The position numbers and the translations under genes were made by a program. Positions 1,475-18,411 of a stretch of DNA of 20,000 nt are shown piece after piece. Numbering within the stretch: the first letter of the stretch is position 1; the number at the start of each line of letters is the position of its first letter. Source of the stretch: an uncultured virus (IMG/VR IMGVR_UViG_3300030330_006072) (lineage: Duplodnaviria > Heunggongvirae > Uroviricota > Caudoviricetes); IMG/VR virus record IMGVR_UViG_3300030330_006072; one strand, 5' to 3'. The notes under the pieces were generated by a model that saw nothing but the letters and a program-made list of their open reading frames with translations, was not told the DNA's origin and searched no databases.

Positions 1475-2380
1475 CTATTTTCCTAAATATTTTGTGAGAT
1501 CAAATCCGCCACAATCTATTTTAGCATTGCTAATTTGATAATGATGTACAAATCCCGACCAGTCCCCTTTTGCTGCGGGTTCAAAAAGACTATCGTATTC
1601 TTCTACTTTGCCTTTCCCATCGTTTTGTATTGGACATCGCATCGGAATGTCGCATGCATCGGCAATCGCCCACCAAAGAGCCTGTGCAGCTTGAATCTGA
1701 ACATCATAGAAACCAAGATGCTCCTCTAACTCTACTCCTCTCACTTTTCCTGTTACTATTGGTCGTTCTCCAAATCCATTTTTGACGTACCATGATTGAT
1801 ATTTGTCTGCATAGTATGCATTGCTGATTTCTACTCCTACAGAGAAAGAGTTTTGATTTCCCGCATGCCATGCTTGATGTTGAATGTCTAAGGTTTGAAA
1901 AATTGTACCATCATTATCTATAAGAAAATGTACAGATATCCCTCTATCATCTAAAACTCTTTGACAAGAAGCAGATGATAAGCACACATCCCAATGATTG
2001 ACGAATAGTTTTATATGTCGATCGGGGCCAACTTGTTTTCTGTAGCATCCTTCTTTGGCCTTTAAACCATCATCCTCATCCCACAAAATAACCTTATCCC
2101 AACGTATAGGGAAAAACTCCCCATTGTATACAATGTGATTTGTGTCTCGACTTGACGTTCGAGGTTCCCAAGAGGATATTTCTGCTTCTCTATCCGTAAA
2201 GATTCGACGAAAGGTTTGCATACCTACCATTCCATCCCCTGTTAATCCTTTGGATTTTTGATATGCTATAATGGCATGTATTAATTCCTCATCATGGTGC
2301 TTAAAGCCAAACCACGAAGGCTCCCAACCAAATTTGTTAGATGAATTGACATTGTATTTAAGAATTTTAGATATGTTCAT
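1475..2380 (-). CDS. Endolysin: N-terminal peptidoglycan-binding domain + N-acetylmuramoyl-L-alanine amidase (Amidase_2/AmpD-like)
   Basis: PG-binding-1-like AIIAYQKSKGLTGDGMVG. Amidase_2 motifs VNH, SVHFLIDNDGTIFQ, AWHAG, NSFSVGVEI (catalytic Glu), VHH and KIDCG (His/His/Asp-or-Cys Zn ligands). Confidence 0.92.
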   Translation of the reverse strand: MNISKILKYNVNSSNKFGWEPSWFGFKHHDEELIHAIIAYQKSKGLTGDGMVGMQTFRRIFTDREAEISSWEPRTSSRDTNHIVYNGEFFPIRWDKVILWDEDDGLKAKEGCYRKQVGPDRHIKLFVNHWDVCLSSASCQRVLDDRGISVHFLIDNDGTIFQTLDIQHQAWHAGNQNSFSVGVEISNAYYADKYQSWYVKNGFGERPIVTGKVRGVELEEHLGFYDVQIQAAQALWWAIADACDIPMRCPIQNDGKGKVEEYDSLFEPAAKGDWSGFVHHYQISNAKIDCGGFDLTKYLGK

Positions 2381-2434: not shown

Positions 2435-2764
2435 ATGGCAATTATTCAAAATACTATTCGAAGCGCACAAGCATCCGCAACGAATACAACAAGCGTAGCC
2501 GCAAGCTTGGCACTACCTCAAAATGCACACACTGTTATAATATACAATCCCGATGGAACAAACAGCGTGTATGTGGCGGAAGGTACTGCGTCGGCTAGTC
2601 CAATATCTGTGGCTCAAGCTTTGATTGTTCCCGCAAACAGCAGTGTAACGTTGGGTATTGGTACGCAAACCATGAGAGGGAATCCCCTAGGGGATTTTAT
2701 CTTTAGCACGTCTGCGGGATCGATATCGGTCACAATAACCTATATTTGTACTAATACCATCTAA
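2435..2764 (+). CDS. Small beta-rich putative virion protein
   Basis: Start moved to ATG 2435 behind GGGAGA (2425-2430). 109 aa of alternating hydrophobic strands (HTVIIYN, SVYVA, LIVPANSSVTL, ISVTITY), suggesting a beta-sandwich. Confidence 0.65.
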   Translation: MAIIQNTIRSAQASATNTTSVAASLALPQNAHTVIIYNPDGTNSVYVAEGTASASPISVAQALIVPANSSVTLGIGTQTMRGNPLGDFIFSTSAGSISVTITYICTNTI

Positions 2765-4566
2765 TGCATAGACGATTCCCATACCCTTTTTTCCTCACTG
2801 GAGAATTAAGAATTGGTTCTGGTTCTGGAGGAAGCGGATCGGCACTTGAAGTAAAAGATGAGGGTGTAACCATAGACTCTAATGTCACTGTCCTTAATTT
2901 TATTGGTGCAGATGTCCAAGCTTTGTCGGGTGGATCTGGAATTGTATCTATTTACATTCCGCCTCCTTCTTTTGCGTCTCATTGGACGACAAGCGATGGA
3001 ACAACAAACGGAAGTGTATCTGAGAGTATTAGTCGATCAACTGCACGTATATCAACACCTACAAGCGAGGGAAACCCCTTCTCTACTGGAGGGTGGGCGG
3101 GAACAAATCAAAGTTCATCCCTAAACACTACCGTTACATTTACAACTGTATCGGGACAGGCTGTAACAGGATTTGGGGGCAACTCTTCTTTTACGATTAA
3201 TGTATACGATGCGGATGGAACGAGTGTTTTAGCAACATACACTACCCCCTCCTTAACAGGGAATGGAACAAATACGTCTGGTTCTGGTTTTATATCGGTT
3301 ACTCTTTCTGGATACGGTGCAGATACAACAAGGTTCAAAGCTGTACCCTCTATCTCGGTACAAATTAATAATATATTGAATGCAAATTCTCGATCTGGAG
3401 GAAGATATCATGTGGTTGCTATAATGACTACTGATGCAGCAACCGATGGAACAGGGCCATATACATACACGCAAACAGCGGTGTTTTTAGATTCGAACCC
3501 TACGACTCCTTCTATCGGTGGAACCACAAGCATTGCCGAAACAGGCGGATCAGTGACCACAAAACATCTAAGTGGGATTGAGTATTACACAACAGGATCG
3601 AGATTTACAATCGATGTTACAGACATTGACCAACTGAATAGAAATACAGCGAGGACGACGAATAACGTGCAAATTACAGCAAGTAATTATGGAATTTCGA
3701 ATCTCAATCAAAGCCCGTTTGGAACAGGGTCGGGAAATTTTAGCGGATGGACGAATGCATTTGATCAAGACAATGTCAATTATCAGAATACAGCAGCATC
3801 GATATCAAGCTCCAACTTTAGATATAGAGGAACAGGAGCATCTGCCTCGGCAACTCCACGAGATACGTGGGCCTCTGGTTCTACCCAAACATCATCCAAC
3901 GCTTCTATATTAGTAGACACATACGGAACAACAAGCTCGGATTTATCAGAAAGTTTTGATGATGAAAATCGAAGACAAACGAGTAATTTTAACACTGGCA
4001 ATACTGCGGGAAATTGGACTTCTGCAAACTCTCTTGTAGGTGGTGAGGCTCTAGTCTTGGGCGGACAGCTATTGGTTCCCAATCAAGCGACATTGACAAA
4101 CGGCTCCACCAATAGCGATTTTAGCTCCTATTCTCCGACAATAGGAGGCGCAAACCCAAACTATACTGCTCTTGGTGCTCCAGCATCTTATTATCGCACA
4201 ATCGTCGATTCTACTGGCCTTAACCGATCATCATTTACTATCGTGTTCTCTGGTAGTTTTGTTTCGAATGCAACGAATGATTTAGCCAATGAAAATTTAA
4301 AAATCTTTATTCGTAGACGTGCAAGCGCAAATGGTGGAAATGCGGGCTATAATACTGCTTTTCCTTTACTTGTGCATGGAGCACTATATAACTTTGCTGC
4401 TTTTGATGATGGTGTAAACAACGGTCAAATTCGAGAGGCATCTAGCTCTGGAAATACAGTCAATTGTACTTTTGGAGGCTTTACGTGCGAGAACGGATTT
4501 TTTATTCAGATTGAGATTGCCAATACAGCTATTAAACTAAGTAGTTTTACGGTTACATTTTTCTAG
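2764..4566 (+). CDS. Ser/Thr/Gly-rich beta protein, putative fibre/spike-type structural protein
   Basis: 600 aa, TAATG coupling. N-terminal LEVKDEGVTIDSNVTVLNFIGADV resembles a motif I recall from phage fibre proteins. Composition is typical of virion proteins. Confidence 0.65.
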   Translation: MHRRFPYPFFLTGELRIGSGSGGSGSALEVKDEGVTIDSNVTVLNFIGADVQALSGGSGIVSIYIPPPSFASHWTTSDGTTNGSVSESISRSTARISTPTSEGNPFSTGGWAGTNQSSSLNTTVTFTTVSGQAVTGFGGNSSFTINVYDADGTSVLATYTTPSLTGNGTNTSGSGFISVTLSGYGADTTRFKAVPSISVQINNILNANSRSGGRYHVVAIMTTDAATDGTGPYTYTQTAVFLDSNPTTPSIGGTTSIAETGGSVTTKHLSGIEYYTTGSRFTIDVTDIDQLNRNTARTTNNVQITASNYGISNLNQSPFGTGSGNFSGWTNAFDQDNVNYQNTAASISSSNFRYRGTGASASATPRDTWASGSTQTSSNASILVDTYGTTSSDLSESFDDENRRQTSNFNTGNTAGNWTSANSLVGGEALVLGGQLLVPNQATLTNGSTNSDFSSYSPTIGGANPNYTALGAPASYYRTIVDSTGLNRSSFTIVFSGSFVSNATNDLANENLKIFIRRRASANGGNAGYNTAFPLLVHGALYNFAAFDDGVNNGQIREASSSGNTVNCTFGGFTCENGFFIQIEIANTAIKLSSFTVTFF

Positions 4567-4575
4567 GTTTTTATT

Positions 4576-5211
4576 GTGGCTTTTTTCCCCGATCAATACA
4601 AAGTATTTATATCAGAGTCCAACAATCAAATTATTTTATCGGCTCGTATATCGGAAGATGTCGCTGAGACATACTTTTTGAGTAAAGATCAATGTCTCCC
4701 TTTTACAGAGGCTACCGATTTTTCGTCTTGGGCGGGGTCGGACTCTATCATGGGAAAGATCGCCAATAATGAAGCGACATTGGCCTTGAGAACCAGTGAA
4801 GGAGTAAAGTATTATCGGAGTGATGCGGGAACGCTCCTTGTTATGCAAGCTCAAATGAGAACATCCGTTGCATCATTAAATGATGACGTGTCAGACTCTG
4901 GAGGAAATGCAGCACACCACGCAGATATAAATATAGACTATGAATATATTAGACAAATAATAAAATTTGAACTGAGTATGTTTAAAGCGGAATTAATGGC
5001 GGATTTGGCTCAAAGTAAGCCAAGAGAACCAATTAAGCCTACTCTCACTAAAACTTTAATAAAACCCCCTTCCAGTGTGTATGTACCATCGAAAATTACT
5101 AATTCAAACTTAGAAGGGAATATTAATATAGAATCCTCTACAAAGGATTCTAATATAGAAAACGCTTTAGAAGCGTTAAAAAATCTGAGAAAACAAGGAG
5201 ATAAAAAATGA
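4576..5211 (+). CDS. Hypothetical protein coupled to the actin-like gene, candidate adaptor/regulator
   Basis: 211 aa, GTG start. Globular N-terminus, Pro/Lys linker, C-terminal amphipathic helix NIENALEALKNLRK. ATGA overlap with the actin gene. Confidence 0.75.
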   Translation: MAFFPDQYKVFISESNNQIILSARISEDVAETYFLSKDQCLPFTEATDFSSWAGSDSIMGKIANNEATLALRTSEGVKYYRSDAGTLLVMQAQMRTSVASLNDDVSDSGGNAAHHADINIDYEYIRQIIKFELSMFKAELMADLAQSKPREPIKPTLTKTLIKPPSSVYVPSKITNSNLEGNINIESSTKDSNIENALEALKNLRKQGDKK

Positions 5212-6182
5212 TCGGATTAGACATAGGAACAATGAACATTGTTTGCAGCACCAAAGATCCCTCATCTGGAGAAATATCCACAAGAAGGATTCGTGATGCA
5301 TTTTTAGATTTGCCTATTAGCGCAAAACGTATGCTCAAAATGGGATCGAGCAATTTTATCCAAAGAGACGACCTTCTTTATATTATTGGAGATCAAGCTT
5401 TGGAGGTAGCGAACATCTTTGGAAGAGAGGCAAGAAGGCCATTAAGCCAAGGACTTATATCCAACTCTGAATCGGAAAGTCTCGATATACTGGCATTTAT
5501 CATCCAATCATTGATCGGAAATGGGAACGGAGAGAATTGTTTTTACTCAATCCCCGCTAAACCGATTGATAATCCATCTAAAGATGTGATCTACCATAAA
5601 AGGGTATTTGAGCGTATCATAGCAGAATGCGGATATAAACCATGTGCCAGTAATGAAGCAATGGCAATTGTGTTTTCAGAAGCATCAGAGACGCAATTTT
5701 CCGCTATATCGTTTTCATTTGGCTCTGGAATGACGAATGTAGCGATTTCTCTTAATGGGATTGAGTGTTTGACTTTTTCAATTCAAGTGGGTGGAGACTG
5801 GATCGATAAAGGAGCCTCCCAAGCCCTAGGAATGACGCAAGCAAGGGCCTGTTCAATCAAAGAGAAAGGAATAGACTTGATGAATCCAAGAGGAAGAGAA
5901 CAAGAAGCCATCGCCTTTTATTATCGAGAACTCATCGAGTACACACTAGAGCAAACGCACAATGAATTGAAATCAAGAGCGCAAAAATTCTCTTTGTCTC
6001 GCCCAATTCCTATAATTGTATCGGGTGGAACCAGTACAGCCGTTAATTTTGATCTCTTCTTTCAATCGGTATTTGAGCGTTTATCCGATAAGTTTCCTTT
6101 CAATGTAAGTGAAATCAAAAAGGCTAAAGATCCCTTTAATTCAGTATCCTTGGGCTTACTTATACAATCATTGCAAGAATAA
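5208..6182 (+). CDS. Actin-like ATPase (MreB/MamK-like, viral)
   Basis: Phosphate-1 IGLDIGT, RRPLSQGLI (cf. MreB RPLKDGVI), connect-1 SNEAMA, phosphate-2 SFGSGMTNVAI, VGGDWID, adenosine motif IIVSGGTS and C-terminal KDPFNSVSLG (cf. EDPLTCVARG). RBS ACAAGGAGA. Confidence 0.9.
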   Translation: MIGLDIGTMNIVCSTKDPSSGEISTRRIRDAFLDLPISAKRMLKMGSSNFIQRDDLLYIIGDQALEVANIFGREARRPLSQGLISNSESESLDILAFIIQSLIGNGNGENCFYSIPAKPIDNPSKDVIYHKRVFERIIAECGYKPCASNEAMAIVFSEASETQFSAISFSFGSGMTNVAISLNGIECLTFSIQVGGDWIDKGASQALGMTQARACSIKEKGIDLMNPRGREQEAIAFYYRELIEYTLEQTHNELKSRAQKFSLSRPIPIIVSGGTSTAVNFDLFFQSVFERLSDKFPFNVSEIKKAKDPFNSVSLGLLIQSLQE

Positions 6183-6191
6183 GGAGGAAGT

Positions 6192-6488
6192 ATGGAAGAT
6201 TTTGAAATTAGAGTCACGTTTCAATATGAACAACCTACTCAAAAATATAAGATGGATTCAATTAAAAAATCTATTAAAGAGTTTCAATCTAAGTATTGCG
6301 ACTTAGCCCGATCGTATCAAGGTTTCTGGATCGATCAAGGGTGGTATGCAATGGAAGACGATAAAAACAAAGCTCGAATCGTGAAACATGACATTGTGCT
6401 CTCTTTTGTTACAAAAGAAGGAATGCTATCTTTCAAGGCTCAAGTTGAAAATATTAAACCTCAAAACGTTTCATTGACGATAATCTAA
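6192..6488 (+). CDS. Hypothetical protein
   Basis: 98 aa, AAGGAGG RBS, TAATG coupling to the next gene. Confidence 0.8.
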   Translation: MEDFEIRVTFQYEQPTQKYKMDSIKKSIKEFQSKYCDLARSYQGFWIDQGWYAMEDDKNKARIVKHDIVLSFVTKEGMLSFKAQVENIKPQNVSLTII

Positions 6489-7528
6489 TGGGTTTTTCCA
6501 ACCAAGAAAGAATTAATATGAATTCCGCTGCCCTTGCAGCGGGTGTAATTGATGCCAATTCAAGTGCTCAATGGTATGAAAAGCAATTCGGATTCTCTTT
6601 TATTCTGAATGCTAATACGGTCTGGACGCAATTATCATCCATTCCAACTGCTGCAAACTTAACGACAGCTAGAAACAACGCAACGGCAAACCCAACTTTG
6701 ATCCAAGACCTTAGCCAAGCATCAGACGCAAAAAGGCTCACCAAGGTAGCGGGTACGAATAACTCGACGTTTGCCGCATACTCGACGTATAACGACACAT
6801 CGAGTACTCTTTTAAAAAATTGGCTTCTTCCCCAATTGGTTCCTCAAGCCTCTGGTGCTCCTTCTAATGGTTATTCCATCAATCTATACAATGGAGATCC
6901 CGACAGTGGAGGAACTCTCATTACAACAACGGTAGGCCAAACAGGAACAGGAACGACAAAAAGTGTCGGATGGATTTGGAATTATGCTTTAGGGATTCTC
7001 CTTCTATCCGATGACTTCTACTCTCAAAGTGGCATCTCTTCTGCTTCCTTTGATCCGTATGTGGTAGGATTCCGATATATCGGCAATACCGCCTCAAGTG
7101 GAGTATCGACAACCGCAACAAGAACGACATCATCGGGTGTTGCGGATGAAACAATAGCCATAGGAGACGTTCTACGATTCGCCTTGAACGGAGAAGCGGG
7201 ACTAACAGCGGGTAGACTGGTAAAGGCCAATGCAACGTCTGTAAATGGATCTGAGGTGGTTGGAATAGCGACAAGTGGGGGATCTCAAGGGGCAAGCATA
7301 AACTATGCAACATCTGGCGAAGTCGCTGTAAAATTTGGCTCAAATCCCGCTACGACCGACAATGGAAAGAAGGTTTTTTTAAATACAACCAGTGGACAGG
7401 CCACATTTACGGCTCCTACAGCATCGGGCCAAACGATAGTGCGCCTTGGGCATATAAACGGTGCAACAGGAAGCACAAGCACACCAACCATTGTTCTAAA
7501 TATAATGGTTGTGATGCAAATAGGATAA
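6488..7528 (+). CDS. Putative virion structural protein with C-terminal beta-tulip/cement-like (DUF2190-like) domain
   Basis: 346 aa, S/T/G/A-rich. C-terminal pattern ADETIAIGDVL...GRLVKANA...VVGIA...VFL...SGQ...TAPT...IVRLG resembles phage decoration domains. Confidence 0.6.
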   Translation: MGFSNQERINMNSAALAAGVIDANSSAQWYEKQFGFSFILNANTVWTQLSSIPTAANLTTARNNATANPTLIQDLSQASDAKRLTKVAGTNNSTFAAYSTYNDTSSTLLKNWLLPQLVPQASGAPSNGYSINLYNGDPDSGGTLITTTVGQTGTGTTKSVGWIWNYALGILLLSDDFYSQSGISSASFDPYVVGFRYIGNTASSGVSTTATRTTSSGVADETIAIGDVLRFALNGEAGLTAGRLVKANATSVNGSEVVGIATSGGSQGASINYATSGEVAVKFGSNPATTDNGKKVFLNTTSGQATFTAPTASGQTIVRLGHINGATGSTSTPTIVLNIMVVMQIG

Positions 7529-7580: not shown

Positions 7581-7636
7581 GTATAAAGATTTTTGTGAAG
7601 CATGTGAATGTGATCCTTGTGATTGTGGGTGGGGAC

Positions 7637-9454
7637 ATGACTAGATTTAAATGGCTACCATTAGATGATGTCGTGAGAAGCATTCCTGTTATGGATAAAT
7701 ACAACGTCTCCAGAGTAGCCAGAGGACTCGATGACTCGGAGCAAACAAAGGAGGGATTCATAGAGGCTTATATCGCTGTAAAGGGCGACAAGAACAAAAT
7801 GATGACTCGTATCACTGGAAGGATGCGTAAAGGCCAAGAAGTCGAAACGTGGGCCGATAGAAGGAATCAATTTGTTGCTCGACATCTAAAGCAAATGCGC
7901 CAAGGTGACACGTACTCTAATGGATGGTTGCCAAGTGGAGAGCCAACACGACGACACTTAGCCTTAATCGCTTGGGCCTACTCTCCCTCTCCTAAAAGAC
8001 TAAAAGACTGGCTCAATACACAAGAAGCACCTTTGACAAACCCTAAAACGATAAGAAGTGCAATTCATCGTATTGATTCACAAGGTGTACATGAAAAGAT
8101 CGGATTCGTCGTATTCTCTGATTCATCTAAGGGCCTAAAGATCGACGTAGACGTGTCTTCACTTCCAAATGGAGAACATGGTTTTCATGTACATGAATAT
8201 GGTAGCATAGAGCCAAAAATGAAGGATGGCAAGATGGTATCGGGATTGAGTGCGGGCCAACATTACGATCCCTTGGATGCGGGCTTTCATGGTTCTCCAA
8301 CAGGTTGCGGACATCTCGGTGATCTTCCTTTTATCACTGTAAAGAACGGAACCTCGAAACAAACTGTATATGCACCTAGACTGTCCGTAAAACAGATCGA
8401 GAATAGGGCCATCATTATCCATGAAGGAGGGGATAATTACTCGGATACTCCTTTACCCAACGGTGGGGGAAAATCTCGTATTGCGGGCGGTATTATCACG
8501 AATGGCTGTCCGTATTGTGTATCGAACCCTAAGTTTACCGCAAAGAAGCTTGAAAATATATTGTATGACGTTTACAGAAGGGGATCGGCTGCATGGGCAT
8601 CGGGTGGACATCGGAAATTCCAAACCCCGCAGTCGTGGGGACATGCGAGAGTAAATTCTTTCTTGGTTGGAGGCAAAACCTTTTTCACTGGAGACAAGGA
8701 TCTTGCTAAAAAGCTACCTACAAAGCTGTATGAAGCGATCTATAAAGAAAGAACATACGATCCCCCAAAATCTCTAAAGTCTGATGACAAAAAGGTGATT
8801 AGGGACTCCAGAGGGCTAAAGATACCCCAAAAGTATTTGGATGGATTCAAAGGAAAAGATCGGGATAGTCGAATCAAAGAGATAGACAAAAGACGTAGAG
8901 AGTATTCACAAGCTTTAAAAAAGTATGGTGACGAAAAAGATTTTCCTCAAAAGGTTTTAGATCAAATTTATTCTCCTTGGGACAGCGATAAAGGAACATC
9001 TAAGATTAAGAGTCCGTATACAATCGAGGCACATAAAAGAGGATTCACAGGCTCCAGACTGGAGAAATCTAAAGAGGCGATAAACTATTACATGAAGAGA
9101 AAGAACCCTTCTAAGTCTATGAGTGTAAGCGATAAGGATATAATAAACGCTCTATCGGAGCGTTTTAAGAGTCTAAATAATCAATTGCCCAAGTGGGAAG
9201 ATATCAAATGGAAGAAAGGAAAAGATTTTGATATGGATGGGACGTGGGAAACAGAGATCGGGGGCAAGATATATGATATTTATCGAGATGCCACAAGTGG
9301 CATATATTCTTCTGCGGTCTGGTATTTAGGACGAAAATCAGAAAAAATATTTAAGATATCTAAAAGCGACATCTTAGATATACTTGGATACACCAAGAAA
9401 GAAGCTACAAAAAAGCTTGTGGAAAGGATAAAAGATCGTCAGTCTAAAAAGTAA
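7637..9454 (+). CDS. Multi-domain protein: unknown domain + Cu/Zn superoxide dismutase (SodC-type) + DUF5824-like module + unknown C-terminal domain
   Basis: Likely start ATG 7637 behind GGGTGGGG. The SOD domain (~8045-8500) keeps HVH, GQHY, FHG, GHLGD, IIH and the catalytic Arg (SRIAG). VYRRGSAAW...TPQSWGHARVNSF...GKT...DKDL resembles DUF5824 as I recall it. The SOD call is strong, the other domains are less certain. Confidence 0.85.
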   Translation: MTRFKWLPLDDVVRSIPVMDKYNVSRVARGLDDSEQTKEGFIEAYIAVKGDKNKMMTRITGRMRKGQEVETWADRRNQFVARHLKQMRQGDTYSNGWLPSGEPTRRHLALIAWAYSPSPKRLKDWLNTQEAPLTNPKTIRSAIHRIDSQGVHEKIGFVVFSDSSKGLKIDVDVSSLPNGEHGFHVHEYGSIEPKMKDGKMVSGLSAGQHYDPLDAGFHGSPTGCGHLGDLPFITVKNGTSKQTVYAPRLSVKQIENRAIIIHEGGDNYSDTPLPNGGGKSRIAGGIITNGCPYCVSNPKFTAKKLENILYDVYRRGSAAWASGGHRKFQTPQSWGHARVNSFLVGGKTFFTGDKDLAKKLPTKLYEAIYKERTYDPPKSLKSDDKKVIRDSRGLKIPQKYLDGFKGKDRDSRIKEIDKRRREYSQALKKYGDEKDFPQKVLDQIYSPWDSDKGTSKIKSPYTIEAHKRGFTGSRLEKSKEAINYYMKRKNPSKSMSVSDKDIINALSERFKSLNNQLPKWEDIKWKKGKDFDMDGTWETEIGGKIYDIYRDATSGIYSSAVWYLGRKSEKIFKISKSDILDILGYTKKEATKKLVERIKDRQSKK

Positions 9455-9482
9455 AAGGAGAAGGGATTGGAACCCTTCTCCT
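9446..9482 (-). terminator. Rho-independent terminator-like hairpin
   Basis: AGGAGAAGGG (9456-9465) pairs perfectly with CCCTTCTCCT (9473-9482). A U-rich tail (TTTTACTTTTT) follows only on the minus strand. Confidence 0.65.
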
Positions 9483-9629: not shown

Positions 9630-10481
9630 ATGCAAGAAAAATATACCGTAAATTTAATGAAAGATGGAAGTATAGTAGGGAATATTGGTTCTTATCCATC
9701 CAAAAGAGAAGCGCAAAGCGTAGCTTTAGAGTTTAATGTAAAGTTTAAGAGAAGGGCGGGAAAGGCTGTTGTAACCGAATTAAAAGAACAAAAAGAAGAG
9801 GAAAAGCCAAAGCCAAACCCTAGACGTAGTACTCAAGCTCTATTCTTATCTCGATCAAATCAAGAAGAGTCAGAGGAGGAGTCAGAAGAGGAGTCAGAAG
9901 AGGAGTCAGAAGAAGAATCGGAGGAAGGGTATCAATACTCCGAAGAAGAAGAGTCAGAAGAAGAACAGAGAACACCTATTTTTAAGCCCCGACAACGACT
10001 AAGAGAGCGACGAATAGAGAACAAGCCTAAGAGTCGATATAAAGTGCCACATAAGACAGTCGATCGTCCGTTTATGTTTGGGTATGGAGCACAAAACACA
10101 AACATTGTTCTCATCGATGATGAAGGATACGTGGCTTTAATAGAGAACAGAGCAATAAGAGGCCCAAAGTGGATCTTTATGTCAAGTGAGATAGAGAGCC
10201 ATGATTCCCCTCAAGAGAAGATGATAGAAGATGTTGAAAGCGCATCGGGCTACAAGAATGAGATTATATCTCGAATAGAAGCTTCCTATATATCGGGAAA
10301 GAAGATTATCTTTTATTTGGCTCGCCCTACACGAATGGTTCACGACCCAAGAGAAGAAATCGCTTGGGTTAGCCAAGATGAAGCATACGATTTATTAGGA
10401 AGAAATATTGGGCAAAATAAAACAATCTTAAGAAGAATTTTAGATAAAGCTTTCAGTATTTGGAGAAAAAAACAATTATAA
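9630..10481 (+). CDS. Protein with acidic repeat linker and C-terminal degenerate Nudix-fold domain
   Basis: RBS ACAAGGAGA. Basic N-terminal domain ends KPNPRR, then (ESEE)n. C-terminal NIVLIDDEGYVALI...W...SGY...FYLA...IAWVSQDEAYDLL follows the Nudix layout, but the box residues are substituted. Confidence 0.7.
   Translation: MQEKYTVNLMKDGSIVGNIGSYPSKREAQSVALEFNVKFKRRAGKAVVTELKEQKEEEKPKPNPRRSTQALFLSRSNQEESEEESEEESEEESEEESEEGYQYSEEEESEEEQRTPIFKPRQRLRERRIENKPKSRYKVPHKTVDRPFMFGYGAQNTNIVLIDDEGYVALIENRAIRGPKWIFMSSEIESHDSPQEKMIEDVESASGYKNEIISRIEASYISGKKIIFYLARPTRMVHDPREEIAWVSQDEAYDLLGRNIGQNKTILRRILDKAFSIWRKKQL
9867..9926 (+). repeat. 12-bp tandem repeat (GAGTCAGARGAR, five units, the last degenerate) encoding ESEE
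   Basis: Units gagtcagaggag, gagtcagaagag, gagtcagaagag, gagtcagaagaa, gaatcggaggaa. Confidence 0.9.
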
Positions 10482-16063: not shown

Positions 16064-16417
16064 ATGTCGATATTAAACAGAAAGAAAAAGCCTAACAAAA
16101 CAAAACCAAATCCCTTTAGAAGACCATTTGAATTCCAAGAACCAGAACCCAAAAATTCAGATACTATTTCTCGTCCTCCTTTGGTCGAAACTCCTTTACG
16201 ACAGAAGAGCGTCCCTAAAAAACCCAAAACAAAGAAAGTTGGTCGGCCCGCATACAAAAACCCCAAAAACAAGAAAAATAAACGCTTTACAGTATGCTGT
16301 ACAGAAGGGGAAATGAGAGAGATCCGTATTTTTGCAGCGGAGCGTGATATAAGCGTGTCGGATCTGGTTATGCGTTGTATTTCTCAATACATCTTAGAGA
16401 AAAAAGGGCCTAAATGA
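16064..16417 (+). CDS. Basic protein with C-terminal ribbon-helix-helix domain
   Basis: RBS AAAGGAGA. K/P-rich disordered N-terminus with KKVGRP, then KRFTVCCTEGEMREIRIFAAERDISVSDLVMRCI (RHH pattern). Confidence 0.78.
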   Translation: MSILNRKKKPNKTKPNPFRRPFEFQEPEPKNSDTISRPPLVETPLRQKSVPKKPKTKKVGRPAYKNPKNKKNKRFTVCCTEGEMREIRIFAAERDISVSDLVMRCISQYILEKKGPK

Positions 16418-16836: not shown

Positions 16837-17234
16837 AAAGGCACAAGCTCTCTATCTCTTTGGTCGAGAACAGCTAAGGGATCAACTCCCCTTGTCTTAG
16901 CCTCTAAGAGAGACGCAAAGGCTACGATGTGTTCGCAGCATCCATGTGCATAGTATATTTGCTTATGCCAGAGGCAAGAACAGGAAATGGATACGTCGGG
17001 GCGATACTCGGCTGCATAAAGATTGATTGAAACATCGTATTGTTCAATCAATCCTTTATAGATTCCAAGTGTCGGATTGCTCGATTTCCACAAAACGTCA
17101 AATTTACCCTCTTGGAGAATAATCTTTGCTTTTTCAAATCGGCTATGTTCTGCTCGAATCGGTCTGCGCCAAACTTCGTTAAGTTTGGCGACTGTAAGGA
17201 GACGAATAAGTCGTTTTTCTTCATCGCTACGCAT
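16833..17234 (-). CDS. SWIM zinc-finger protein
   Basis: YDVSI...ISCSC-x11-CCEHIVA matches the SWIM CxC-xn-CxH motif with its preceding Y-x-V strand. AGGAGA RBS. Confidence 0.8.
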   Translation of the reverse strand: MRSDEEKRLIRLLTVAKLNEVWRRPIRAEHSRFEKAKIILQEGKFDVLWKSSNPTLGIYKGLIEQYDVSINLYAAEYRPDVSISCSCLWHKQIYYAHGCCEHIVAFASLLEAKTRGVDPLAVLDQRDRELVPF

Positions 17235-18411
17235 TTTGCTCTCCTATCCAATACCAACTATCGGTTAAGGTGGAGGCAACCTTTAATTGCTTAGATGATA
17301 CCAACCATTTCAAAGCCTCATCGACTACTCTTTGAGGTTTTTGTAAGCGTTTGAGGATAGATGCATAATGAACTTTTCCTCCAGTTTGCCCGACAAACTC
17401 GATAACTCTTCTACGCATTCGAGACGAATCATCGGGGGATAAAGTTTCTGAAAGGCTGAACAAAGACTCTATTAAAAATTCTGTAACATAAATTGCTAAA
17501 GTTAATGTTTGCGGTTGTATATCCCATCTTTGACCAAAAGAAGAAAGTCCTTGATCAAAATGCAACAGGTGTGCGATACGAAGACAATGTGCGGGTATAC
17601 GTGTCTTGGCTCCTGTTATGATGTTGGGGAATGGTCTTGTCTGGAGATCATTAAACCAGTGTGTCCAAAGATCCAAAGCTTCCTTATTTGGCCCCTCACA
17701 TACTCCAATACCATTCTGTTTGCGTTGGGATAGGGTAGAGACTAACCAGTCCTCCCCTTTGACTCGTCGGCCTTTATTGGGCCAAGCATCAGTACGCTCT
17801 CGATGTGCATGGATAAAAAAGAATCGACCAAGAAATCCGCCATGCCAGTCTTCTTCCGATGTGTAGGACTCCAAATATTTTACTGCACATGCAGCAAGGA
17901 GCGTTAATCTAGGCTTTTCACATTTTACGGTTTCGCCCGCCTTAGCTCTCTCTTGGGGTGTTCCATCCCAAAGATCGGTTAAGAGAGTCTTTATTGCTTC
18001 TCCGTATCCTGTTTTGGTATTTGAAAAGAAATATCCAAACTCTGAATAGCTAAGAATTTGTGTTGGCTTCTCGGACAGCGATTGAATCAATCCCTCTGGT
18101 GAAGCGGGTTTATCACCTTGGAGACTAGAAGACACTTTGTATAAGATTTTCTTTCCGATAGATAAAGCAGTGGATTTTTGCTCTACCCCGCTACGACCAA
18201 CAACACATCCATAAAATGTCGGAGGAAGAGACGTGATGAAAGGTATCCCCGAATTTGGCGGCATACATACGTTTAGGAGTCCAAGACCAACACATAGGTG
18301 ATAGGCACTTGGAGCCGTTGTTTTTTGACTGGCATAACTAATATACTTACGTAGCCAGCTTTTATCGGGGAGTTTTTGGCAAAACTCCCTAATAGACTGT
18401 TCTTTTATCAT
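17227..18411 (-). CDS. DUF3987/YfjI-like P-loop NTPase (putative replicative helicase) with C-terminal winged helix
   Basis: Walker A variant GRSGVEQKSTA, SPEGL, Walker B variant ILSYSEF, LLTDLWDG, PRLTLLAA, GFLGRF (Arg finger-like). HTH-like C-terminus. RBS ACAAAGGAAAACA. Confidence 0.8.
   Translation of the reverse strand: MIKEQSIREFCQKLPDKSWLRKYISYASQKTTAPSAYHLCVGLGLLNVCMPPNSGIPFITSLPPTFYGCVVGRSGVEQKSTALSIGKKILYKVSSSLQGDKPASPEGLIQSLSEKPTQILSYSEFGYFFSNTKTGYGEAIKTLLTDLWDGTPQERAKAGETVKCEKPRLTLLAACAVKYLESYTSEEDWHGGFLGRFFFIHAHRERTDAWPNKGRRVKGEDWLVSTLSQRKQNGIGVCEGPNKEALDLWTHWFNDLQTRPFPNIITGAKTRIPAHCLRIAHLLHFDQGLSSFGQRWDIQPQTLTLAIYVTEFLIESLFSLSETLSPDDSSRMRRRVIEFVGQTGGKVHYASILKRLQKPQRVVDEALKWLVSSKQLKVASTLTDSWYWIGEQNA

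What the first reader, a model, noticed from the sequence alone, without database searches (positions are those of the whole stretch)
7637..9454. Polyprotein-like gene whose domains are each delimited by Asn-Pro
Seen: the three NP dipeptides in this protein fall at apparent domain borders. LTNP (8039-8044) precedes the SOD domain, VSNP (8525-8530) follows it, and KRKNP (9104-9109) precedes the last domain. The next gene has KPNPRR (9816-9821) between its N-terminal domain and its acidic linker. All four are encoded AAC CCT. Inference: NP may be a viral protease cleavage or virion-packaging signal that lets unrelated cargo domains be strung together, or AACCCT may mark domain-shuffling junctions.
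Basis: partly seen in the sequence, partly recalled or inferred. Interest (0 to 1): 0.75.

Follow-up and report, generated by a model that had tools for sequence, protein, structure and literature searches.

The report
Asn-Pro seams join phage protein modules
A marine phage protein that strings a superoxide dismutase and other modules together carries a conserved Asn-Pro pair at its joints, kept in relatives even where modules are swapped, which looks like a cut-here or dock-here mark although no cutting has been shown.

Summary
Gene 7637-9454 encodes a 605-aa protein: N-domain | NP | Cu/Zn SOD | NP | permuted DUF5824 | NP | C-domain. All three NPs, and the one in the next gene, lie in coil or low-confidence linkers and are coded AACCCT.

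The count in one protein (3 against 0.93 expected) proves nothing, because NP is 1.5-2.3 times over-represented in the phage proteins examined here. The position is what matters. In 24 homologues, NP sits 44-48 residues before the copper site in 22 of 22, and 1-4 residues after the CxxC end in 22 of 24. Modules inserted in relatives bring their own NP. About 60 stand-alone viral SODs start and end at these points and lack it.

GC-rich relatives code seam NPs with CCC or CCG, so a fixed AACCCT hexamer is not supported.

Best reading (about 0.4): NP, usually [K/R]-x-N-P, is a processing mark in a polyvalent phage protein. No protease was found in the 20 kb, and no cleavage is shown. A non-cut docking or structural seam remains a serious rival.

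Earlier notes of this scan describe the same Asn-Pro seams in at least eight other windows; those are unchecked leads.

[quoted passage not shown]
7637..9454 (+). Gene for the 605-aa multi-module protein (P0001). The ATG at 7637 is preferred over the upstream GTG at 7595.
   Evidence: ORF list and translation. Homologues start at the equivalent M-x-[RK]-[FY]-x-W. GGTGGGG lies 3-9 nt upstream of the ATG.
7637..8014 (+). N-domain (residues 1-126), a helical fold like the 'ORFan' C-terminal domain of mimivirus sulfhydryl oxidase R596. Function unknown; possibly binding or localisation.
   Evidence: AF2 pLDDT 93.8. VIA Z 14.6, rmsd 2.6, 110 residues aligned to 3td7_A 172-289, next best Z 3.4. Foldseek E 9.8e-4. 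Stand-alone copies such as P0167.
8039..8044 (+). Seam 1: Asn135-Pro136 (AACCCT) between the N-domain and the SOD.
   Evidence: N and P in 22 of 22 homologues that reach this point; coil before strand 138.
8048..8518 (+). Cu/Zn superoxide dismutase module (residues 138-294) of a viral clade that ends in CP[YH]C. The metal-ligand His/Asp positions and the Arg are invariant.
   Evidence: PF00080 E 1.7e-26, 93.6 bits against cut-off 28.9. phrog_1975. Invariant H184 H186 H209 H218 H226 D229 H262 R281 C291 C294; their assignment as ligands is recalled.
8525..8530 (+). Seam 2: Asn297-Pro298 (AACCCT), directly after the CxxC end of the SOD.
   Evidence: NP 1-4 residues after CxxC in 22 of 24; P0016 ends there, P0019 has N-G; pLDDT<50 at 296-302.
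8531..8752 (+). C-terminal half of DUF5824 (GAWASGGHR...ARVNSFLVGGKTF), placed first in this protein: a circular permutation.
   Evidence: PF19141 37.2 bits against cut-off 25, residues 309-355 matching profile positions 74-125. Order compared with P0005, P0011 and P0094.
8789..9094 (+). N-terminal half of DUF5824 ('RGLKIPQKYL...KYGDE..FP...YY'), placed second. The joint with the preceding half has no NP (YDPPKSLKS).
   Evidence: Alignment A1. Pfam coverage of this part in P0005, P0011 and P0094.
9104..9109 (+). Seam 3: Asn490-Pro491 (AACCCT) before the C-terminal domain.
   Evidence: pLDDT<50 at 486-500. Kept at the aligned place in P0004; P0003 and P0089 have NP a few residues further on, after their own linker.
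9110..9451 (+). C-terminal domain (residues 492-605), unknown. Shared with P0003, P0004 and P0089 only.
   Evidence: No family or Atlas hit. Low AF2 confidence.
9456..9482 (.). G+C-rich inverted repeat just after the stop codon; a possible terminator.
   Evidence: 10 pairs, with the T-run on the minus-strand reading.
9630..10481 (+). Next gene (283 aa): small N-domain (about residues 1-46), seam NP, SEEE acidic run, and a NUDIX-type C-domain with a degenerate Nudix box.
   Evidence: NUDIX PF00293 hits in homologues P0220-P0223 and P0225, none in the window copy.
9816..9821 (+). Seam NP of the next gene (KPKPNPRR, AACCCT), 17 residues after the small N-domain.
   Evidence: Of the 12 homologues with a recognisable N-domain, 10 have an NP 6-25 residues after it.

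Best explanation
The gene encodes a small 'polyvalent' phage protein: a chain of autonomous modules (R596-ORFan-like N-domain, Cu/Zn SOD, permuted DUF5824, unknown C-domain). Each module occurs elsewhere as a separate protein or in another order.

The Asn-Pro pair at the joints, usually within [K/R]-x-N-P-[K/R/S/T], is a protein-level signal kept by selection. Most likely it is a processing site at which a sequence-reading peptidase (viral or host, not identified here) cuts the chain, so that the SOD and the other modules act as separate proteins, as their stand-alone homologues do.

Shown: the seam-specific placement, its conservation, and the modular shuffling. Inferred: that the mark is read in trans. 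Speculative: that reading means cutting, and which enzyme does it.
For: 1. Conservation. NP is invariant or nearly so at both SOD borders (22 of 22; 22 of 24) while adjacent linker residues vary.

2. Insertions. Every large insertion in relatives (P0004, P0005, P0009, P0010, P0011, P0018, P0022-24) is flanked by its own NP. NP lies within 8 residues of 55 of 85 insertion points, against 8.9 expected. NP is the second most enriched of 333 dipeptides at homology breakpoints, 2.8-fold.

3. Stand-alone forms. About 60 stand-alone viral SODs begin MI[KR]AAIH one residue after the NP-equivalent point and end CPYC+stop or CPYC+hydrophobic tail, without NP. The stand-alone N-domain P0167 ends where the seam begins. 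Cutting at NP would therefore give native-like termini.

4. Structure. The NPs lie in coil or low-confidence linkers with no modelled contacts. Their invariance is therefore hard to ascribe to fold stability and points to a reader acting in trans.

5. Local motif. Over 178 non-redundant NP contexts, position -2 is K/R in 47% (2.8-fold) and D/E in 2% (0.1-fold). This is the kind of subsite preference a binding pocket gives.

6. Relatives. Long relatives repeat a longer motif: P0094 has NPRRR(R)N four times, and it and its relatives carry a module with an HExxH motif just before the last seam.

7. Precedent. Polyvalent phage proteins are proposed to be processed by embedded zincin-like peptidases (PMC5512222, passages read). 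A zinc peptidase that reads N-P before its cut exists: PPEP-1, VNP|PVP (PMC10413326, passages).

8. Inside the modules NP is at or below compositional expectation: N-domain 2 against 3.86, SOD core 6 against 9.09. Whole proteins have 90 against 32.0.
Against: - No cleavage data of any kind.
- No peptidase family hit and no HExxH motif in any ORF of the 20-kb window. The rest of the roughly 76-kb contig could not be read.
- The HExxH module of relatives has no Pfam match and is absent from P0001.
- Other proteins of the window do not avoid NP: 27 against 12.0 overall. A protease cutting any exposed NP would therefore need extra context.
- Some proteins carry the motif within their first 12 residues (7 cases), and L161's 295-aa ORF has NP 10 residues before its end. 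At such places cutting would release only a few residues, which fits a tag at least as well as a cut site.
- Most proteases do not cut before Pro (recalled).
- One module joint in P0001 (between the DUF5824 halves, YDPPK) and one in P0016 lack NP.
- NP depletion in stand-alone viral SODs (2 against 27.3) is not unique to NP: it is the 7th lowest of 249 dipeptides, so family history can explain it.
Confidence: 0.4

Rival explanations
1. NP is a seam mark that is read but not cut. It could be a short docking motif ([K/R]-x-N-P, often with an Arg run) that tags each module for packaging, DNA or portal binding, or a partner protein. It could also be simply the best turn or helix-start dipeptide, insulating neighbouring modules so that they fold independently.
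For: - The motif occurs at extreme N-termini (MRRRNPL..., 7 cases) and near a C-terminus (L161's 295-aa ORF), where cutting makes little sense.
- Arg-rich versions (NPRRRR) resemble nucleic-acid-binding peptides (recalled).
- N and P are both favoured in natural linkers and in type-I turns or helix N-caps (recalled).
- NP298 is followed four residues later by helix 302-314.
- No protease was found in the window.
- NP is generally 1.5-2.3 times over-represented in the phage proteins examined.
Against: - A purely structural linker rarely keeps one exact dipeptide in 22 of 22 and 22 of 24 diverged sequences while its neighbours drift.
- The three NPs show no modelled contacts.
- NP precedes a strand at seam 1 and a helix at seam 2, so there is no single structural role.
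- Other multi-domain DUF5824 proteins (Melnitz and 58 IMG/VR ORFs of the pelagimyophage type) join their domains without NP. NP is therefore not a general need of such fusions.
Confidence: 0.3
2. The Asn-Pro bonds cleave themselves: the Asn side chain attacks its own carbonyl (succinimide), as in the known Asn-Pro autocleavages. No protease is needed.
For: - Asn-Pro autocleavage is established in FlhB, Asn269-Pro270 within NPTH (PMC3708937, passages).
- It is also reported for aquareovirus VP5, Asn42-Pro43 (PMC9148132, search listing only).
- It would explain why only N and P are invariant and why no protease is seen in the window.
Against: - The known cases sit inside folded domains that strain the bond and supply catalytic groups (recalled). 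Here the NPs lie in low-confidence linkers.
- No T-H follows NP: the window has NPK, NPK, NPS and NPR.
- Uncatalysed Asn-Pro cleavage takes weeks (recalled).
- The K/R preference at position -2 is not needed for self-cleavage.
Confidence: 0.1
3. The mark is at DNA level: AAC-CC(T) microhomology at module borders favours in-frame illegitimate recombination, and NP is only its translation.
For: - All four seam NPs of the window use AACCCT, although AAC is the minor Asn codon (99 of 300) and CCT is 89 of 260 Pro codons.
- All eight NPs of the two ORFs examined in GC-rich loci L162 and L163 begin AACCC.
- Modules are indeed shuffled at these points.
Against: - The third Pro base varies (T, C, G) in relatives.
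- In the window itself, NP66 before the RHH domain of gene 16064-16417 and NP16 in its basic N-terminal part are AACCCC and AATCCC.
- The flanks of the four AACCCT share nothing.
- AACCCT is not enriched in the window: 10 sites on both strands against roughly 9 expected from base composition (my estimate).
- Five bases are too few for homologous exchange.
- Selection for future recombination cannot hold NP invariant across proteins 40-67% identical.
- AAC preference may instead reflect accuracy selection at an essential Asn (recalled idea).
Confidence: 0.05
4. Chance: three NPs in a 605-aa protein happen to fall in linkers, where N and P are common.
For: 3 against 0.93 expected is not significant given a 1.5-2.3-fold general excess of NP.
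Against: Column-wise conservation in 24 homologues, NP around every inserted module, and absence of NP from stand-alone forms.
Confidence: 0.02

Closest known systems
Polyvalent proteins of phages and conjugative elements (Iyer, Burroughs, Anand, de Souza, Aravind 2017; PMC5512222, abstract and passages read)
   Same: - Several unrelated effector-type domains lie in one polypeptide of a phage, and architectures are reshuffled between relatives.
- Relatives of this protein carry typical polyvalent-protein domains: ParB_N, GNAT, and a module with an HExxH motif.
- Processing into parts by a peptidase is proposed for that class.
   Different: - A conserved Asn-Pro seam is not described there: a text search of the paper gave 'linker' 0, 'superoxide' 0, and 'asparagine' 3, of which the one passage shown concerned a domain's NX+ motif.
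- The window protein is small (four modules) and has no embedded peptidase.
- SOD, DUF5824 and the R596-like domain are not among the domains found in my term search of that paper.
Viral polyproteins with protease cut sites (general principle, recalled)
   Same: A short conserved site sits in accessible linkers between modules that are separate proteins in other viruses.
   Different: No protease is identified and no cleavage is shown. The host is prokaryotic. N-P as the core of a cut site is unusual.
2A 'StopGo' peptides, D(V/I)ExNPG|P (recalled)
   Same: N-P lies at the border of two products in one reading frame.
   Different: No G-P follows NP in the window (NPK, NPK, NPS, NPR). The upstream sequence is not conserved. 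2A works on eukaryotic ribosomes.
Asn-Pro autocleavage: FlhB/YscU NPTH (PMC3708937); aquareovirus VP5 Asn42-Pro43 (PMC9148132, listing only)
   Same: The scissile pair would be the same, Asn|Pro.
   Different: The known sites are inside folded domains and have further conserved residues. Here the pair lies in floppy linkers with variable followers.
Pro-Pro endopeptidase PPEP-1, VNP|PVP (PMC10413326, passages)
   Same: An HExxH metallopeptidase whose site contains N-P just before the cut. It shows that N-P can be read by a zincin.
   Different: It needs Pro at P1', which the window's seams lack. It is a secreted clostridial enzyme with no relation shown to any protein here.
Mimivirus sulfhydryl oxidase R596 'ORFan' domain (PDB 3td7; PMC3509050, passages)
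   Same: The N-domain of this protein has the same fold (Z 14.6) and is likewise fused to a redox enzyme. The authors suggest a binding or localisation role.
   Different: Only 19% identity, and not detectable by sequence. The fusion partner here is a Cu/Zn SOD, not an Erv oxidase. This is a phage, not a giant virus.

Membership tests
Polyvalent proteins (Iyer et al. 2017) | Two to 15 distinct domains in one polypeptide encoded by a phage or plasmid | tested here: met
   N-domain, Sod_Cu, DUF5824 and C-domain. Phage context: amidase endolysin, DUF3987 primase-helicase, and structural genes like those of Shewanella phage 1/4.
Polyvalent proteins (Iyer et al. 2017) | Variable architectures: the same domains recombined in relatives | tested here: met
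   Insertions, deletions, reordering, and Cu/Zn against Fe/Mn SOD in homologues.
Polyvalent proteins (Iyer et al. 2017) | Presence of the class's typical conflict domains (ParB-like, methylases, MPTase and others) | tested here: inconclusive
   None in the window protein itself. ParB_N and GNAT are present in relatives P0094, P0095 and P0037. The HExxH module is unconfirmed.
Polyvalent proteins (Iyer et al. 2017) | Packaged in the virion and delivered with the DNA | not testable with these tools
   Only position beside structural-type genes.
Cu/Zn superoxide dismutase (PF00080) | Profile match above Pfam's gathering score | tested here: met
   93.6 bits against 28.9, residues 156-287 covering profile positions 3-133 of 133.
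Cu/Zn superoxide dismutase (PF00080) | Copper and zinc ligands and catalytic Arg present | tested here: met
   H184 H186 H209 H218 H226 D229 H262 R281 are invariant in 24 sequences. Their assignment to ligand roles is recalled.
Cu/Zn superoxide dismutase (PF00080) | Conserved intrasubunit disulfide using the Cys of ..IACGVI (recalled feature) | tested here: not met
   The viral clade has ..IAGGI.. and instead an invariant C-terminal CxxC. This affects the subclass, not the fold assignment.
DUF5824 (PF19141) | Profile match above the gathering score over the whole profile | tested here: inconclusive
   37.2 bits against 25, but only profile positions 74-125. The rest follows later in the chain as a circular permutation.
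2A StopGo peptide | D(V/I)ExNPGP core | tested here: not met
   No G-P after any of the four NPs, and no conserved upstream D-x-E.
Asparagine peptide lyase of the FlhB/YscU type | NPTH loop inside a folded domain | tested here: not met
   The followers are K, K, S and R. The sites lie in coil or low-pLDDT linkers.
PPEP-type cut site | Pro at P1' (N-P|P) | tested here: not met
   Window seams are NPK, NPK, NPS and NPR. A few relatives have NPP.
R596 ORFan-domain fold | Structural match covering the whole domain, well above the background | tested here: met
   Z 14.6, rmsd 2.6, 110 of 134 residues aligned, next best Z 3.4. Foldseek E 9.8e-4, TM 0.68. Model pLDDT 93.8.

The most novel reading that the evidence does not exclude
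[K/R]-x-Asn-Pro is a general punctuation code of uncultured prokaryotic viruses. It would be a cut-site (or dock-site) grammar, read by a so far unrecognised processing enzyme, that lets viruses assemble, swap and then release effector modules (SOD, NUDIX, ParB, GNAT and others) from single polyproteins. That amounts to a bacterial or archaeal virus counterpart of eukaryotic viral polyprotein processing, with a new protease specificity.
Probability: 0.35. Interest if true: 0.85.

Novelty: new variant of a known kind. Interest (0 to 1): 0.7.

Why it matters
- If the seams are cut, this is a new processing code and implies a protease specificity (Asn-Pro) not described for phages.
- It would show that tailed phages use true polyproteins to deliver or co-express sets of effectors.
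- It gives a simple rule for parsing domain borders in viral 'dark matter' proteins, and possibly a compact tool for co-expressing proteins.
- Independently of cutting, the family shows a phage repeatedly carrying a superoxide dismutase (Cu/Zn, or Fe/Mn in a relative) joined to a domain so far known only from a giant-virus redox enzyme. That points to oxidative-stress management as a phage function worth testing.

Tried and rejected
**DNA of close homologues, for a codon test**
- The search for related loci with P0001 in viral contigs found nothing.
None of the 160 loci held carried the N-domain or the C-domain; the only match outside the SOD was one short DUF5824-like stretch in L005.
- The N-domain alignment A2 gave only three GC-rich distant loci in viral contigs and one Tessaracoccus MAG locus in genome contigs, which has no seams.
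- The DUF5824 alignment A3 returned pelagimyophage-type proteins without seams. These served as a negative control.

**Reads**
- Logan contigs of four marine runs were laid at 80% likeness. No listed difference fell in the four NP codons.
- The table was truncated and the expected number of changes in 6 nt is below 1, so this says nothing.

**Whole genome and protease search**
- No whole genome is held.
- No protease was found in the window.
- P0094 modules were searched in records G001-G003; only the small 'GSEVQT..F' domain matched.
- A crude ORF scan of the 105-kb record G002 gave NP 34 against 22.2 expected and no HExxH. There is no genome-wide seam grammar there, but my gene calling was rough.

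**Other checks**
- NP avoidance: stand-alone viral SODs have 2 NP against 27.3 expected, and bacterial SodC 47 against 18.0. Other dipeptides are equally depleted in this homologous set, with NP 7th lowest of 249. I do not count this as evidence.
- The HExxH module of P0094 has no Pfam family.
- The C-domain has no Atlas hit.
- The N-domain has no PDB match by sequence and no match in cultured phages.

**Literature**
- 'DUF5824': 0 papers.
- 'Asn-Pro' + bacteriophage + cleavage: 31 papers, 20 listed, none on phage seams.
- 'asparagine peptide lyase' + phage: 5 papers, none relevant.
- 'polyvalent proteins' + 'superoxide dismutase': 1 paper, unrelated by its title and abstract.
Full report
**What is there.** The window (40.6% G+C) is a piece of an uncultured marine tailed phage.
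- It has an Amidase_2/PG_binding endolysin (1475-2380, minus strand) and a DUF3987 primase-helicase (17227-18411, minus strand).
- It has a Volactin-like actin (5208-6182).
- Two genes (2764-4566 and 6488-7528) have relatives just downstream of portal and major capsid genes in Shewanella phage 1/4 and large Vibrio phages.
- No near-identical cultured phage exists, and no whole genome is held.
- The finding's gene, 7637-9454, gives a 605-aa protein. The ATG at 7637 fits the starts of homologues and has a GGTGGGG just upstream.

**Checking the observation.** NP occurs three times, at residues 135, 297 and 490. These are the stated coordinates, each coded AACCCT. The next gene has KPKPNPRR at 9816-9821, also AACCCT.
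- Pfam puts the Cu/Zn SOD at 156-287 and the C-terminal half of DUF5824 at 309-355.
- An AlphaFold2 model built on 24 homologues has a confident N-domain (1-126) and SOD (strands 138-290). It places NP135 in the coil before the first SOD strand, and NP297 and NP490 in stretches with pLDDT under 50 (296-302 and 486-500).
- The NPs are therefore at domain borders.
- The count alone means little: 3 against 0.93 expected, in a setting where NP is 2.25-fold over-represented over all window ORFs (27 against 12.0) and 1.5-fold in 1194 unrelated ORFs.

**Relatives show the placement is not chance.**
- A search of 5.8 billion proteins gave 87 relatives of similar length, 8 longer ones, and thousands of shorter ones, of which 120 were listed.
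- In the alignment of 24 SOD-fusion homologues (40-67% identity), N135, P136, N297 and P298 are at least 90% conserved.
- NP lies 44-48 residues before the GxHG[FT]H copper-site motif in 22 of the 22 proteins that extend that far. It lies 1-4 residues after the terminal CxxC in 22 of 24. P0016 ends there and P0019 has N-G. The linker residues around NP vary.
- Relatives differ by whole modules: a ParB-like insert in P0004, further inserts in P0005, P0009, P0010 and P0011, an N-terminal extension in P0018, and other C-terminal domains in P0018 and P0022-24. Each extra module comes with its own NP.
- Over the 85 places where a sequence lacks an insertion of 25 residues or more that others have, 55 have NP within 8 residues, against 8.9 expected. 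Of the 30 misses, 16 are at one insertion point inside a domain.
- In an all-against-all BLAST, NP is the second most enriched of 333 dipeptides near homology breakpoints.
- These counts are over related sequences and are not independent events. The number of distinct seam positions is roughly ten.

**Stand-alone forms.**
- About 60 viral-type SODs of 155-190 aa start MI[KR]AAIH..., one residue after the NP-equivalent point. They end CPYC plus stop or CPYC plus a hydrophobic tail. None has NP at either end.
- A stand-alone N-domain (P0167, 124 aa) stops where seam 1 begins.
- NP thus belongs to neither module. It appears only where two modules are joined.
- Inside the modules NP is at or below compositional expectation: N-domain 2 against 3.86, SOD core 6 against 9.09. 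Whole proteins have 90 against 32.0.

**Breadth.**
- Long relatives repeat a longer form. P0094 (1068 aa, two ParB_N domains, a module with FHENLHH, DUF5824) has four NPRRR(R)N joints. P0045, P0051 and P0054 have NPRRRR.
- P0095 has a GNAT domain and, after RSRSNP, an Fe/Mn SOD in place of the Cu/Zn enzyme.
- GC-rich viral loci that carry the N-domain also hold proteins with RRRNP and NPRRR joints (L161, L163).
- In the next gene's family (small N-domain, acidic run, NUDIX domain), 10 of the 12 homologues with a recognisable N-domain have an NP within 25 residues after it, as does the window copy. NP is 38 against 10.6 expected over the 15 proteins listed (sums are mine).
- Over 178 non-redundant NP contexts, position -2 is K/R in 47% and D/E in 2%.
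- As a negative control, the multi-domain DUF5824 proteins of Melnitz and of 58 IMG/VR ORFs of the pelagimyophage type join their domains without NP. Their NPs sit mostly in the catalytic GRFNPPTTGHE motif.

**Protein or DNA level?**
- The window's four seams all use AACCCT, although AAC is the minor Asn codon. Among the window's other NPs, 3 of 23 use AACCCT. The chance is about 0.001-0.002 by my hand calculation.
- Against a DNA signal: the flanks share nothing.
- Seam NPs in GC-rich relatives use CCT, CCC and CCG.
- In the window's gene 16064-16417, NP66 just before the RHH domain and NP16 in the basic N-terminal part are AACCCC and AATCCC.
- NP is held across proteins whose synonymous sites must be saturated.
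- I could not obtain DNA of the close AT-rich homologues, so a weak AAC-CC microhomology is not excluded.

**How it most likely works.**
- Shown: a seam-specific, conserved [K/R]-x-N-P in flexible linkers of a shuffled multi-module phage protein.
- Inferred: since the dipeptide has no modelled contacts, something reads it in trans.
- Most likely (about 0.4): it is a processing site, so that the chain yields separate modules with termini like those of the stand-alone proteins. This fits the proposal that polyvalent phage proteins are processed by embedded zincin-like peptidases (PMC5512222), and the HExxH-motif module next to the last seam in the NPRRRR relatives. A zinc peptidase that reads N-P before its cut is known (PPEP-1; PMC10413326).
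- Against it: no protease in the 20 kb, and the HExxH module has no family match. Other window proteins do not avoid NP. The motif also sits within a dozen residues of protein ends.
- The main rival (about 0.3) is a mark that is read but not cut, for docking, packaging or DNA binding, or a strict turn or cap that insulates modules.
- Self-cleavage of Asn-Pro, as in FlhB, is less likely (about 0.1), because the known cases need a folded environment.

**What the parts are.**
- The SOD keeps all invariant His/Asp/Arg positions and is probably active.
- The N-domain, modelled at pLDDT 93.8, matches only the 'ORFan' C-terminal domain of mimivirus sulfhydryl oxidase R596: Z 14.6, with the next best at 3.4. 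That domain was described as a novel fold, possibly for binding or localisation (PMC3509050).
- DUF5824 is circularly permuted here.
- The C-domain is unknown.

**Novelty.**
- My searches found no paper on DUF5824 or on Asn-Pro seams in phage proteins. The polyvalent-protein paper does not mention linkers or SOD.
- Earlier notes of this scan describe the same Asn-Pro seams in at least eight other windows of uncultured viruses, some with a zinc or cysteine protease nearby. They are unchecked AI notes on other DNA. I tested the seam pattern only on this family.
- I file the protein as a new variant of the polyvalent-protein kind, with a seam code that is not in print as far as these searches reach.

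Noticed in passing
window 7637-8014: The N-domain has the fold of the mimivirus R596 'ORFan' domain (3td7 residues 172-289; Z 14.6, 19% identity). That fold was published as novel and without relatives. Here it is part of a large phage family, also found as stand-alone proteins of about 120 aa.
   Followed up: partly
window 5208-6182: A phage gene for a Volactin-like actin (PF25216, E 6.9e-64). Its only matches among the phage records searched are two uncultured huge phages of 485 and 595 kb, at 52% and 31% identity.
   Followed up: partly
window 8048-8518; proteins P0099-P0158: A viral clade of Cu/Zn SOD without signal peptide. The Cys of bacterial ..IACGVI is Gly, and the chain ends in an invariant CP[YH]C. 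In stand-alone forms this is followed by stop or by a C-terminal hydrophobic tail.
   Followed up: partly
window 8531-9094: DUF5824 is circularly permuted in P0001, P0003, P0004 and P0089: profile positions 73-125 come first and the part matching about 1-72 follows. The two halves are joined without NP.
   Followed up: partly
window 9630-10481: The next gene ends in a NUDIX-type domain whose Nudix box is degenerate in the window copy (SSEIESHDSPQEKMIEDVESASGY). Homologues P0220-P0223 and P0225 keep a canonical box and hit PF00293. A SEEE-type acidic run (about 9861-9974) draws very high contig depth in marine runs, probably as low-complexity sequence.
   Followed up: partly
P0095 (relative, 1285 aa): The same kind of protein (N-domain, DUF5824, GNAT) carries an Fe/Mn SOD after an RSRSNP seam instead of a Cu/Zn SOD. 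Two unrelated SOD types have thus been recruited to one architecture.
   Followed up: no
L179, L184, L185, L187, L189 (IMG/VR DUF5824 proteins): A conserved RHNCDNPGPK near the C-terminus of pelagimyophage-type proteins contains the NPGP core of eukaryotic 2A peptides. It is probably coincidental.
   Followed up: no
window 16064-16417: A small basic protein with an RHH/NikA-like C-terminal domain (residues 70-106) has YKNPKNKK at residue 66, just before the domain, and KPNPFRR at residue 16. This is possibly the same seam motif in a regulator.
   Followed up: no
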